1,130 nucleotides of DNA from Naegleria gruberi (Eukaryota). Below the pieces are notes generated by a model. That model was not told the origin of the DNA. It searched no databases and saw only the letters and a program-made list of their open reading frames with translations. The DNA lies in NCBI GenBank assembly GCA_000004985.1, contig GG739539.1; one strand, given 5' to 3'. The translations under genes and the position numbers were made by a program. Every line of letters starts with the position of its first letter. Within the stretch, counting starts at the first letter, position 1. This document shows positions 1 through 1,129 of this stretch, one piece after another.

Positions 1-73
1 GTTTTGAAAGAGTTTTGAATATTGTAACAAAGCAGCAGAAAGTGGACATTCACAGGCACAGTTTGATGTTGGA

Positions 74-538
74 TTGAATTATTTGGAAGGAGAAGGAGTG
101 GAGAGAAATGTGGAATGTGCCATGACTTGGTTTACCAAATCTGCCAATCAGAATAATTTATTTGCCATGAAGAAATTGGCTCAATTGTATGATATTGGTG
201 ATGTAATTCCAAGAAATGTAAATGAAGCATTCAAATGGTGTTTAAATGCTGCAGAATTAGGTGATTCTGGTAGTCAATATGATGTTGCTGCCATGTATGA
301 ATTTGGAGATGGTACTGAAAGAGATTTATCCAAAGCTTTTGAATGGTATTCCAAGTCAGCTCATCAAAAGAATCCCCAAGGTGAATTCCAAGTTGGATTA
401 ATGTATTGCTTGGGTAAACATGTGGAAAAGGATCTCAGTAAAGGTTTGGAGTTTGCATTGAGAGCTGCTGAACAAGGATTGTCAAAAGCTCAATACGTTG
501 TGGCTGACATGTATCCTAAGAGTGGAGTACTTGGGTAA
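74..538 (+). CDS. Sel1-like repeat (SLR, TPR-like) protein. The track ORF starts at TTG 74, but homology and the 36-aa repeat register continue upstream to nt 8-11, so the N-terminus is probably truncated or mis-called. The ORF ends with tandem stops TAA TAG (536-541).
   Basis: The translation contains five consecutive 36-aa units with the Sel1 signature (A-F-x-W-[YFC]-x-K-[SA]-A-E-x-G; Q/Y-x-[LV]-[GA]-x-M-Y-x-x-G-x-G-V-x-[KR]-[DN]). The units are 11..118 SFEYCNKAAESGHSQAQFDVGLNYLEGEGVERNVEC, 119..226 AMTWFTKSANQNNLFAMKKLAQLYDIGDVIPRNVNE, 227..334 AFKWCLNAAELGDSGSQYDVAAMYEFGDGTERDLSK, 335..442 AFEWYSKSAHQKNPQGEFQVGLMYCLGKHVEKDLSK, and 443..535 GLEFALRAAEQGLSKAQYVVADMYPKSGVLG (truncated last unit). 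Codon usage is consistent throughout. That this is coding is high confidence. The N-terminal boundary is low confidence because of the in-frame TGA at 5-7 and the lack of an ATG/GTG before codon 122. Confidence 0.85.
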   Translation: MNYLEGEGVERNVECAMTWFTKSANQNNLFAMKKLAQLYDIGDVIPRNVNEAFKWCLNAAELGDSGSQYDVAAMYEFGDGTERDLSKAFEWYSKSAHQKNPQGEFQVGLMYCLGKHVEKDLSKGLEFALRAAEQGLSKAQYVVADMYPKSGVLG

Positions 539-578
539 TAGACAGTGTTATAGTTGGTTTTTAGTTGGCTATGTTCCG

Positions 579-770
579 TCTAAACCCCATCCACAACCCT
601 ACTACCACCGACTACAACCCTAATTTCCCCCAACTTGTTTCCGAAAATAACTGAACGATTTTCCAGAAATTAATCGAATATCAGCCCATAATCGCCTGAC
701 CGTTTTAGTTCAGTGTTAGTTGGTTGGTAGTCGGTTGATTGTTGGGTAAAGGAATGAAATTGGTGGGTAA
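579..770. repeat. Long imperfect dyad with strand-composition switch. A G-depleted C/A-rich block (579-636, one G in 58 nt) and a C-depleted G/T-rich block (712-770, one C in 59 nt) are symmetric about ~671. They share a perfect complementary 9-mer core, ACCGACTAC (607-615) / GTAGTCGGT (727-735).
   Basis: This is read directly from the sequence. The left block is ...ccccatccacaaccctactaccaccgactacaaccctaatttcccccaac... and the right block is ...gttagttggttggtagtcggttgattgttgggtaaaggaatgaaattggtgggtaa.... The lone G (610) and lone C (732) are the residues that would pair with each other in the core. Flank complementarity around the core is ~70% with indels. The palindrome ATTAAT (669-674) sits at the centre. 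Confidence 0.55.
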
Positions 771-855
771 CTATTCAATAAATATTCAGTAACCATTCGG
801 TTATTATATGGTAAACATTCAGTGACTATTCGGTGAACATTCAGTTTCTATGCGG
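767..855. repeat. Direct-repeat array with three copies of a ~22-bp unit. The copies are 780-801 aaatattcagtaaccattcggt, 813-834 aaacattcagtgactattcggt, and 835-855 gaacattcagtttctatgcgg. A degenerate half-unit precedes them at 767-779 (gtaactattcaat), and an 11-nt spacer (tattatatggt) lies at 802-812.
   Basis: Read directly. Copies 1 and 2 are 19/22 identical and copy 3 is ~16/21. Each unit is built of two ~11-bp half-units ending ATTCAGT / ATTCGGT, giving ~11-bp (one helical turn) phasing. Confidence 0.6.
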
Positions 856-936
856 CTTTTAGTGTGTTGGTATTTGACTGAAAGTTTCCCTTAATTTACT
901 CTGTTGACCATTACAATTTTCATAATTTGAGTAAAA

Positions 937-952
937 CTGATTTATTTATTTA
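937..952 (-). promoter_or_regulatory. Two overlapping AATAAA hexamers (TAAATAAATAAATCAG on the - strand) starting inside and immediately after the TAA stop of the - strand gene. They could be a poly(A) signal if the source is eukaryotic or viral, or may just be A/T-rich 3' flank.
   Basis: The - strand sequence at 952..937 is taaataaataaatcag. The function is inferred only from the motif. Confidence 0.2.
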
Positions 953-1129
953 CAATTGTTGTGCTTCTTCTGAGTCTGATTGACCATTATCTGAATAAAG
1001 ATCTGCACCATCTGATTCCATATCAAGCAAATTAATTGCGTCTGCTGAAGGTTGTGTTGCTCTTGTGTCAGGTTTTTTGATCCAATCTTTAACAAGTGTT
1101 AAAAAAACAACTTCATCTTCTGCAACATA
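950..1129 (-). CDS. 3' end (C-terminal 59 codons plus TAA stop at 950-952) of an unidentified protein-coding gene that enters from beyond the right edge of the window. It has an acidic, Ser/Asp/Glu-rich C-terminal tail.
   Basis: Manual reverse-complement translation in the frame starting at 1129 gives YVAEDEVVFLTLVKDWIKKPDTRATQPSADAINLLDMESDGADLYSDNGQSDSEEAQQL* with no internal stop over 180 nt; the other two - frames hit stops within 10 codons. Codon usage (AGA Arg, CAA Gln, GGT Gly, TGG Trp) matches the + strand gene. It is absent from the ORF track because its start codon lies outside the window. The product is not recognised. Confidence 0.5.
   Translation of the reverse strand, partial: YVAEDEVVFLTLVKDWIKKPDTRATQPSADAINLLDMESDGADLYSDNGQSDSEEAQQL

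What the first reader, a model, noticed from the sequence alone, without database searches (positions are those of the whole stretch)
1..538. Sel1 repeat array continues in perfect 36-aa register across an in-frame TGA upstream of the called start
The ORF track starts the protein at a TTG (74) in the middle of a Sel1 unit. Translating the same frame upstream gives a complete, well-conserved further unit (nt 11-118, SFEYCNKAAESGH...GEGVERNVEC) that aligns residue-for-residue with the later units (AFKWCLNAAELGD..., AFEWYSKSAHQKN...). The codon before it (8-10, K) fits the inter-repeat linker (D-L-S-K). The TGA at 5-7 therefore occupies exactly the linker position where the other units carry Ser. 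There is no in-frame ATG or GTG between the TGA and codon 122. So the real gene is interrupted or truncated rather than starting at 74. This could be a pseudogenised or fragmented member of a Sel1 family (such families often occur as paralogous arrays), stop-codon recoding or readthrough, TGA read as sense, or a sequencing or assembly error. The five in-frame TGG Trp codons in the window and the normal TAA/TAG terminations argue against a TGA=Trp genetic code.
Basis: seen in the sequence. Interest (0 to 1): 0.5.

Follow-up and report, generated by a model that had tools for sequence, protein, structure and literature searches.

The report
Sel1-repeat gene cut at window edge
This is an ordinary gene for a Sel1-type helical-repeat protein whose beginning is missing at the very edge of the sequence, so the TTG "start" is an artefact of the ORF rule and the cause of the TGA stop seven bases from the edge cannot be settled without upstream sequence.

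Summary
Observation largely confirmed. Frame 2 reads TTT-TGA and is then open from nt 8 to a TAA-TAG double stop at 536-541. It encodes 176 aa of Sel1 repeats (Pfam Sel1 E=3.6e-36) at exact 36-aa spacing. The listed start TTG74, and every other in-frame start, falls inside a confidently predicted helix (pLDDT 95.5). There is no start codon in 8-73.

New evidence: the first visible helix (KSFEYCNKAAESG, nt 8-46) is of the internal-repeat type, not the N-terminal-cap type. It scores +8.1 bits, and only 1 of 108 real caps scores as high. A further helix and loop should therefore lie, or once have lain, upstream of the TGA.

"Across the TGA" cannot be shown. Only one codon (TTT) lies beyond it, and that codon is uninformative (0.06 bits).

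The source contig, orthologues and upstream flank could not be found in any collection. A nonsense mutation, a contig-end error, an intron acceptor, a truncation junction and TGA-as-sense therefore remain unresolved. No RNA structure, no alternative-code ORFs and no frameshift reading support recoding.

Verdict: an ordinary gene fragment that is 5'-incomplete or interrupted. Interest is low.

The parts
5..7 (+). In-frame TGA that closes frame 2, seven bases from the left edge of the window. It aligns with variable linker position 20 of the Sel1 model.
8..46 (+). First visible Sel1 helix B (KSFEYCNKAAESG). It is of the internal-repeat type, with Lys, a small residue, Phe, Glu, an aromatic residue and Lys-Ala-Ala at the diagnostic positions.
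   Evidence: Pfam second stretch. Custom HMM positions 21-33, i-E 1.3e-4. Internal-versus-cap LLR +8.1 bits, with 1 of 108 caps scoring as high. Predicted helix at residues 3-11, block pLDDT 92.
8..535 (+). Sel1-repeat coding region visible in the window. It is 176 codons: an orphan helix B, four full 36-aa units and a final helix A. No usable start codon lies at its 5' end.
   Evidence: Pfam Sel1 E=3.6e-36. AF2 model pLDDT 95.5 with 10 helices. Exact 36-aa spacing.
74..76 (+). TTG listed as the ORF start. It is residue 23, inside helix A of the first full unit, and has no Shine-Dalgarno-like motif at a usable distance.
   Evidence: sequence read directly
87..98 (+). Two overlapping-in-phase AAGGAG motifs produced by the codons for E-G-E-G-V. 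They mimic ribosome-binding sites ahead of in-frame GTG98 and GTG110, and they lie too far (23 nt) from ATG122.
122..124 (+). First in-frame ATG. It is residue 39, inside predicted helix 35-46.
536..541 (+). Tandem stop codons TAA TAG ending the Sel1 ORF.

Best explanation
The window holds the 3'-proximal 176 codons of a Sel1-like repeat (SLR) gene. Its product is an alpha/alpha solenoid that would act as a protein-protein interaction scaffold.

Coding in frame 2 runs from at least nt 8 to the TAA at 536. The first visible helix is the second helix of a repeat unit, so at least one more helix plus loop (about 22 codons) belongs upstream. The gene therefore extends, or once extended, past the left edge. 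TTG74 is only the first start-like codon after a stop.

As sequenced, the frame is closed by TGA at 5-7. My preferred reading is a single-base lesion at a variable linker codon. It would be either a genuine nonsense mutation (a recently split or pseudogenised Sel1 gene, since the remaining 176 codons are intact) or a base error at the extreme end of a short contig.

Shown: the register, the fold, the lack of a start codon, and the internal-type helix.
Inferred: that upstream sequence is Sel1, and the cause of the TGA.
For: - Sel1 identity and exact 36-aa register are established.
- There is no start codon in 8-73.
- All in-window starts fall inside confidently predicted helices (pLDDT 95.5, helices 15-27 and 35-46).
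- The key test compared 922 internal helix B segments with 108 N-terminal cap helices from 169 Sel1 ORFs in 160 related loci. The diagnostic aromatic position is filled in 89% of internal helices and 7% of caps. The window's helix scores +8.1 bits for internal, or +5.0 without Lys 8-10. Only 1 of 108 caps scores as high. The window's own internal helices score 3.3-23.8. Caps of the short stand-alone homologues P0001, P0003, P0007 and P0024 score -21 to -12, and P0011's cap scores +0.4.
- Frame 2 fits the last visible codons better than the alternatives: +2.9 bits, against -3.4 for a frame-1 T-run shift and +0.3 for frame 3 with a 13-nt deletion.
- The anomaly sits 5-7 nt from the sequence end, where assembly support is normally weakest (general knowledge, not tested here).
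Against: - Nothing upstream of the TGA can be examined. The single codon there is uninformative.
- A genuine single nonsense mutation falling exactly in the two visible edge codons is a coincidence.
- The best single homologue, P0001 (197 aa, 38% identity), is collinear end to end with the visible ORF. It belongs to stand-alone ~200-aa bacterial genes. By itself this would suggest the natural N-terminus is near the edge.
- The cap-versus-internal statistic comes from loci retrieved with consensus-like peptide patterns. Its naive-Bayes score overstates independence between positions.
- No read-level data were available.
Confidence: 0.5

Rival explanations
1. Eukaryotic (or other spliced) gene. 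Nt 1-10 or 1-12 would be the 3' end of an intron (ttttgaaAG|, or AG at 11-12), and the Sel1 exon would begin at nt 11 or 13. The TGA would then be intronic and meaningless.
For: - AG dinucleotides at 9-10 and 11-12 are preceded by a T-run.
- The exon-like ORF has no start codon.
- A stop within 2 non-coding codons is expected about 14% of the time.
- The 408-nt spacer between the convergent genes has no intrinsic terminator and carries minisatellite-like repeats.
- The neighbouring gene ends in an acidic, Ser-rich tail with no homologue among ~15 billion mostly prokaryotic proteins.
- All 5 Arg codons are AGA, and CpG is strongly depleted in both coding regions (observed/expected 0.06 and 0.18) but not in the spacer (0.82).
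- One hit comes from the fungus Acaulospora.
Against: - Lys at 8-10 fits the conserved Lys of the repeat (0.53 versus a background of about 0.06-0.10; +3.2 bits). Under this reading that fit would be chance.
- AAG and GAG are not preferred acceptor contexts, since YAG is usual (general knowledge).
- The closest relatives are all bacterial at 38-44% identity, and the fungal hit is weaker at 29%.
- Ten nucleotides are too few to score a splice site.
Confidence: 0.15
2. A 5'-truncated remnant. A deletion, insertion or rearrangement removed the front of a Sel1 gene, with the junction at about nt 8-11. The first 7-10 nt would then be unrelated DNA that happens to carry a stop.
For: - The helix is internal-type with no start codon.
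- The codon beyond the TGA carries no Sel1 signal.
- A stop is expected about 14% of the time in two non-coding codons.
- GTTTTGAA occurs at 1-8 and again at 12-19, the sort of short direct repeat seen at rearrangement junctions.
- A multicopy element at the junction would also explain why the contig stops here (inference).
Against: The remaining 176 codons are perfectly open, with well-kept repeat consensus and a confident fold. That is unexpected for an old, unexpressed relic. An 8-nt repeat is weak evidence. No mobile-element signature is visible in 10 nt.
Confidence: 0.12
3. A frameshift rather than a nonsense codon. Upstream coding would lie in frame 1 or frame 3.
- Frame 1 (GTT TTG AAA GAG TTT | TGA) would join frame 2 through a 1-nt indel or a +1 slip on the T-run 13-16. 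UUU UGA is an RF2-like shifty stop.
- Frame 3 (F-E-R, resembling the T-E-R and V-E-R found at unit ends) would be followed by a 13-nt deletion.
For: - Frame 1 is open to the left edge, and TTT-TGA allows perfect +1 re-pairing of tRNA-Phe (the mechanism is known from prfB, general knowledge).
- Nt 5-16 (TGAAAGAGTTTT) matches nt 316-327 (TGAAAGAGATTT, codons T-E-R-D-L) at 92% (family D13).
Against: - HMM log-odds of the visible residues are -3.4 bits for frame 1 and +0.3 for frame 3, against +2.9 for frame 2.
- By my own estimate, several 12-nt matches with one mismatch are expected by chance in 1130 nt (several other families of that size are listed).
- There is no stimulatory RNA structure (z=+1.28), and no SD-like element at RF2 spacing.
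Confidence: 0.08
4. TGA is read as an amino acid. This could be a reassigned code (code 25, Gly, in Gracilibacteria and Absconditabacteria; code 4, Trp; Euplotes, Cys), selenocysteine, or programmed readthrough. The gene would then be intact.
For: - Both visible genes end in TAA, and the Sel1 gene has TAA-TAG.
- GC content is low.
- The lineage is unsampled.
- The TGA falls at a variable linker position that tolerates most residues.
- Code 25 lineages are real and have low GC (PMC6851277).
Against: - There is no other in-frame TGA in 235 visible codons, although there are 18 GGN Gly and 4 TGG Trp codons.
- Reading TGA as sense creates no new plausible gene and does not fill the 408-nt spacer.
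- There is no SECIS-like or readthrough-stimulating structure downstream.
- The prior is low.
Confidence: 0.05
5. A genuine short gene, reached in one of two ways. Either it initiates inside the window at TTG74, GTG98, GTG110 or ATG122. Or the natural N-terminus is at nt 8, where AAG is a mutated ATG, matching P0003-type proteins whose Met aligns with this Lys.
For: - AAGGAG motifs at 87 and 93 lie 5 and 11 nt before GTG98 and GTG110.
- P0003 and P0013 begin M-TLDELIRAA..., aligning Met with Lys 8-10.
- The visible ORF is collinear with ~200-aa stand-alone homologues.
Against: - Every internal start cuts a helix of a confidently predicted solenoid.
- The AAGGAG motifs are simply the E-G-E-G-V codons of the repeat loop.
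- The first helix scores as internal, not cap (+8.1 bits; 1 of 108 caps as high; the P0003 cap scores -17.7).
- AAG is among the poorest near-cognate start codons (general knowledge).
Confidence: 0.07

Closest known systems
Sel1-like repeat (SLR) proteins, Pfam PF08238 / SMART SEL1 (e.g. Helicobacter HcpB/HcpC, Legionella LpnE/EnhC, C. elegans SEL-1)
   Same: It has 36-aa units with the A-Q-x-x-L-G-x-x-Y ... G-x-G-V-x-x-D ... A-x-x-W-Y-x-K-A-A-x-x-G pattern. Pfam Sel1 gives E=3.6e-36. The predicted fold is a helical-hairpin solenoid of 10 helices.
   Different: No start codon and no N-terminal cap or signal peptide is visible. Identity to any known protein is at most 44%. Unit 2 is degenerate and lacks the G-x-G-V loop. 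No Hcp-type disulfide pattern was examined.
Stand-alone ~200-aa cytoplasmic Sel1 proteins of Proteobacteria-like contigs (P0001, P0007, P0008, P0011, P0014)
   Same: P0001 is the best full-length match at 38% identity. The alignment is collinear and nearly gap-free from query residue 8 to 171. P0001 and P0014 are each followed by a convergent downstream gene.
   Different: Those proteins begin with a Met and a cap-type first helix (scores -21 to +0.4). The window's first helix is internal-type (+8.1) and is preceded by a stop. Their C-terminal tails are 18 or more residues longer.
Large multi-unit Sel1 arrays (hundreds to thousands of residues)
   Same: The window's segment aligns at 36-42% identity to internal stretches of such arrays. 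Of 849 alignments starting at query residue 4 or earlier, 724 have more than 35 ORF codons upstream. The helix type agrees with an internal position.
   Different: Only 4.5 units are visible here, and the frame is closed by TGA at the edge.
Programmed +1 frameshift of prfB (RF2) and stop-codon reassignment (codes 4 and 25)
   Same: A UUU-UGA shifty stop is present in frame 1. Both visible genes end in TAA.
   Different: No stimulator, no supporting upstream frame signal, no other in-frame TGA and no RNA structure were found.

Membership tests
Sel1-like repeat proteins (PF08238) | Significant match to the Sel1 profile in several tandem copies | tested here: met
   E=3.6e-36, 122.7 bits against a cut-off of 30.7, 4 stretches. 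Custom HMM gives five hits at 36-aa spacing.
Sel1-like repeat proteins (PF08238) | Antiparallel helix-A/helix-B hairpins stacked into a solenoid | tested here: met
   AF2 model with pLDDT 95.5 and pTM 0.89, showing 10 helices of 9-14 residues in A/B alternation. This is a prediction, not an experiment. No fold search was run.
Sel1-like repeat proteins (PF08238) | Complete gene: a start codon followed by an N-terminal cap helix or a signal peptide | tested here: not met
   No start codon in 8-73 and TGA at 5-7. The first helix is internal-type, not cap-type.
Selenoprotein gene (bacterial Sec recoding) | SECIS hairpin immediately downstream of the UGA | tested here: not met
   Nt 1-75 fold at -8.5 kcal/mol, z=+1.28; 183 of 200 shuffles fold as well. 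Rfam found nothing.
Reassigned UGA (code 4 Trp / code 25 Gly) | Recurrent in-frame TGA within conserved coding sequence, and TGA never used as a stop | tested here: inconclusive
   There are 0 further in-frame TGA in 235 codons, with 4 TGG and 18 GGN codons. Both stops are TAA. No new ORFs appear under TGA-sense. The sample is too small, and neither tRNA nor release-factor genes are available.
RF2-type programmed +1 frameshift | Shifty codon plus UGA, an upstream SD-like stimulator at about 3 nt, and an upstream ORF in the 0 frame encoding the N-terminal part | tested here: not met
   UUU-UGA is present. However, the frame-1 residues score -3.4 bits against the Sel1 model, and no properly spaced SD-like element or structure exists. 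The upstream ORF cannot be seen.
Spliced eukaryotic gene | Intron with a 5' GT, a branch point, a polypyrimidine tract and a 3' YAG acceptor | not testable with these tools
   Only 10-12 nt of the putative intron are present. AG occurs at 9-10 and 11-12 after TTTT. There are no transcript data.

The most novel reading that the evidence does not exclude
The TGA at 5-7 is decoded as an amino acid. The window would come from an unsampled low-GC lineage with a reassigned UGA (for example code 25 Gly) or from a programmed recoding event. The Sel1 gene would then be intact and continue upstream.
Probability: 0.05. Interest if true: 0.4.

Novelty: new member of a known kind. Interest (0 to 1): 0.12.

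Why it matters
It matters little. The practical point concerns annotation. The mechanical ORF (TTG74-538) and any gene call from GTG98, GTG110 or ATG122 would mis-state the protein, which should be annotated as a 5'-partial or interrupted Sel1-repeat gene.

The cap-versus-internal helix score used here is a cheap way to tell, from one helix, whether a solenoid-repeat ORF at a contig edge is complete.

Both genes in the window lack close relatives among about 15 billion proteins, so the source organism is unsampled. That is mildly interesting, but it is not what the finding is about.

If the TGA were decoded, the window would mark another recoded lineage. Nothing here supports that positively.

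Tried and rejected
1. Retrieving the flank.
- An exact 51-mer search of metagenome, viral and genome contigs found nothing.
- Six possible gene products and the neighbour's fragment were looked up by exact sequence, and none is on record.
- blastn against the phage and plasmid collections gave no match.

2. Looking for orthologues to compare the codon at 5-7.
- The word-indexed search gave a best identity of 39%.
- The exhaustive HMMER search gave 173,621 family members, none above 40% identity.
- Degenerate-pattern scans of metagenomes and genomes found 160 loci at 44% identity or less, and viral contigs gave none.
- These are family members, not orthologues.

3. Identifying the organism from the neighbouring gene. 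No homologue was found.

4. The natural-N-terminus idea (ATG to AAG, with the Met of P0003 aligning to Lys 8-10). I favoured this at first because of the collinearity with ~200-aa homologues. I then downgraded it because the helix is internal-type.

5. The frame-1 T-run shift and the frame-3 13-nt deletion. These were scored and found inferior to frame 2.

6. Alternative codes. They produce no informative ORFs.

7. RNA elements. Rfam, tRNA and terminator scans gave nothing relevant, and there is no structure after the TGA.

8. The per-alignment count of upstream ORF length is biased toward large arrays, so I used it only as background.

Full report
**What is in the window**

The window is 1130 nt at about 36% GC. 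Frame 2 reads TTT(2-4) TGA(5-7). It is then open for 176 codons, from nt 8 to 535, and ends in TAA TAG. The ORF list gives TTG74..538 only because its rule starts an ORF at the first ATG, GTG or TTG after a stop.

A second gene converges from the right on the minus strand at 950-1129 and runs off the window. Its product ends ...DMESDGADLYSDNGQSDSEEAQQL*. The 408 nt between the two genes contain no long ORF.

**Checking the observation**

The 176-aa product is clearly a Sel1-repeat protein. Pfam PF08238 gives E=3.6e-36 with four stretches.

I built a 33-position Sel1 HMM from 1509 units found in 160 related loci.
- It places units at residues 17, 53, 89, 125 and 161, which is exact 36-aa spacing.
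- It matches residues 1-13 (KSFEYCNKAAESG, nt 8-46) to model positions 21-33 (KAFEWYSKAAEQG) with i-E 1.3e-4.

Coding sequence therefore extends upstream of TTG74 to at least nt 8-11.

TTG74 is residue 23. This is Pfam profile position ~9. In an AlphaFold model of high confidence (pLDDT 95.5, pTM 0.89) it lies inside helix 15-27. ATG122 lies inside helix 35-46. No ATG, GTG, TTG, CTG or ATH codon is in frame between 8 and 73.

- In Pfam's register, nt 8-49 is the second helix of a unit, not a whole extra unit.
- Ser occupies the TGA-equivalent position in only two of four units, and that position is variable in the family.
- There are three in-frame TGG codons, not five.
- In-frame GTGs exist at 98 and 110.
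- Only one codon lies beyond the TGA, and Phe there scores 0.06 bits. 'Across the TGA' is therefore an extrapolation, not an observation.

**Attempts to get the flank or orthologues**

All attempts failed.
- Exact 51-mer scans of metagenome, viral and GTDB genome contigs found nothing.
- Seven exact-product look-ups found nothing.
- There was no blastn match in the phage or plasmid collections.
- Protein searches return only generic family members. The best identity in the word-indexed search of 5.8 billion clusters is 39%.
- In the exhaustive HMMER search, 173,621 representatives pass E<=1e-3, but none exceeds 40% identity.
- Pattern-based scans returned 160 loci at 31-44% identity, from Epulopiscium, Elusimicrobia, TM6, Acinetobacter and many others.
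- The neighbour's 59-aa fragment has no homologue anywhere.

The source organism is unsampled, and the codon at 5-7 cannot be compared with an orthologue.

**Is the protein's natural beginning near nt 8, or does the array need more upstream?**

At first the evidence pointed to a natural N-terminus near nt 8.
- The best single homologue, P0001 (197 aa), is collinear with the visible ORF. Query residues 8-171 align to P0001 15-179 with one gap.
- Its relatives are stand-alone ~200-aa bacterial genes.
- P0003 and P0013 begin M-TLDELIRAA..., which puts their Met exactly on Lys 8-10.

This suggested an ATG-to-AAG start loss, with the TGA being an ordinary upstream stop.

I tested this idea directly. 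From 169 Sel1 ORFs in the related loci I took the helix preceding each helix A. I separated 922 unique internal helices from 108 unique first-in-protein 'cap' helices. The two classes differ sharply.

| Diagnostic position | Internal helices | Cap helices |
|---|---|---|
| Aromatic at the Trp position | 89% | 7% |
| Lys at -16 | 76% | under 10% |
| Ala/Ser at -8 | 96% | 21% |
| Lys at -9 | 82% | 19% |

The window's helix has Lys, Ser, Phe, Glu, Tyr, ..., Lys, Ala, Ala at these positions.
- It scores +8.1 bits for internal, or +5.0 without Lys 8-10.
- Only 1 of 108 caps scores as high. The highest-scoring 'caps' lie far inside their ORFs (residues 375-416) and are probably internal helices whose preceding unit the HMM missed.
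- The window's own internal helices score 3.3 to 23.8.
- The caps of P0001, P0003, P0007 and P0024 score -21 to -12.

The first visible helix is therefore an internal repeat helix. Its partner, a helix A plus the G-x-G-V-x-x-D loop of about 22 residues, should lie or have lain upstream.

Two caveats apply. The loci were retrieved with consensus-like peptides, and the score assumes that positions are independent.

**What closes the frame?**

I scored the visible edge residues against the HMM.

| Reading of the edge | Residues scored | Score |
|---|---|---|
| Frame 2 | F, stop, K, S | +2.9 bits, all from the Lys |
| Frame 1 joined by a T-run indel or +1 slip (UUU-UGA, RF2-like) | V, L, K, E | -3.4 bits |
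| Frame 3 followed by a 13-nt deletion | F, E, R | +0.3 bits |

The frame-3 reading was suggested by the 12-nt match of nt 5-16 to nt 316-327 (family D13).

Other checks on recoding gave nothing.
- No RNA structure follows the TGA (z=+1.28), and Rfam finds nothing there.
- Reading TGA as sense produces no new plausible ORFs.
- There is no other in-frame TGA among 235 visible codons, against 4 TGG and 18 GGN codons. This argues against code 4 and mildly against code 25.

If the upstream sequence were non-coding (an intron, a junction or a UTR), the chance of a stop in the two visible codons is about 14%. An intron acceptor is formally possible, because AG occurs at 9-10 and 11-12 after TTTT. 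Several features have a eukaryotic flavour:
- AGA-only Arg codons;
- CpG observed/expected of 0.06 and 0.18 in the two genes against 0.82 in the spacer;
- the acidic tail of the neighbouring gene;
- a long spacer without a terminator.

The well-fitting Lys at 8-10 would then be coincidence.

**Conclusion**

This is an ordinary Sel1-repeat gene fragment that is 5'-incomplete or interrupted, sitting at the edge of a short sequence.

What is shown: the called start is an artefact, coding reaches nt 8, and the first helix is internal-type.

What is inferred: Sel1 sequence lies upstream, and the TGA is a single-base lesion, either a nonsense mutation or an end-of-contig error (confidence 0.5).

The rivals and their confidences are:
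- intron boundary, 0.15;
- truncation junction, 0.12;
- frameshift, 0.08;
- genuine short gene or start loss, 0.07;
- TGA decoded as an amino acid, 0.05.

Upstream sequence and read support at nt 6 would settle the question. Nothing here is surprising to a specialist, and interest is low.

Noticed in passing
window 700-861 (core 767-855): There is a degenerate tandem array with an 11-nt period (consensus GTAAATATTCA, about 7 copies). It can also be read as a 22-nt period (GTAAACATTCAGTGACTATGCG, 3 copies, 77% matches). It is preceded by an 11-nt-period G/T-rich stretch (TAGTTGGTTGA, 717-745). The array looks iteron-like or minisatellite-like and lies between two convergent genes. Its function is unknown.
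   Followed up: partly
window 586-607 and 725-746 (region 540-760): A C-rich arm and a G/T-rich arm form an imperfect inverted repeat (73% complementary, 117 nt apart). The RNA fold of 540-760 is only marginally more stable than shuffles (z=-1.97).
   Followed up: partly
window 950-1129, minus strand: This is the C-terminal 59 codons of a convergent gene that runs off the right edge. It ends in an acidic, Ser-rich tail (DMESDGADLYSDNGQSDSEEAQQL). It has no Pfam match and no homologue in the 5.8-billion-cluster database or in viral contigs.
   Followed up: yes
window 8-538 and 950-1130 versus 539-948: CpG is strongly depleted in both coding regions (observed/expected 0.06 and 0.18) but not in the spacer (0.82). 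All five Arg codons are AGA. This may hint at the kind of source organism but does not decide it.
   Followed up: partly
window 1-19: GTTTTGAA occurs twice, 11 nt apart (1-8 and 12-19). In frame 1 the sequence reads GAG TTT TGA, a UUU-UGA 'shifty stop' that would deliver a +1 slip into the Sel1 frame. HMM scoring does not support a frame-1 upstream ORF.
   Followed up: yes
window 87-98: Two AAGGAG motifs are created by the E-G-E-G-V codons of the repeat loop. They sit 5 and 11 nt before in-frame GTG98 and GTG110. They could lure gene callers into a false internal start.
   Followed up: partly
window 536-541: Tandem in-frame stops TAA TAG end the Sel1 ORF. The last unit stops just after its helix A, with no C-terminal capping helices like those of the ~200-aa homologues.
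   Followed up: no
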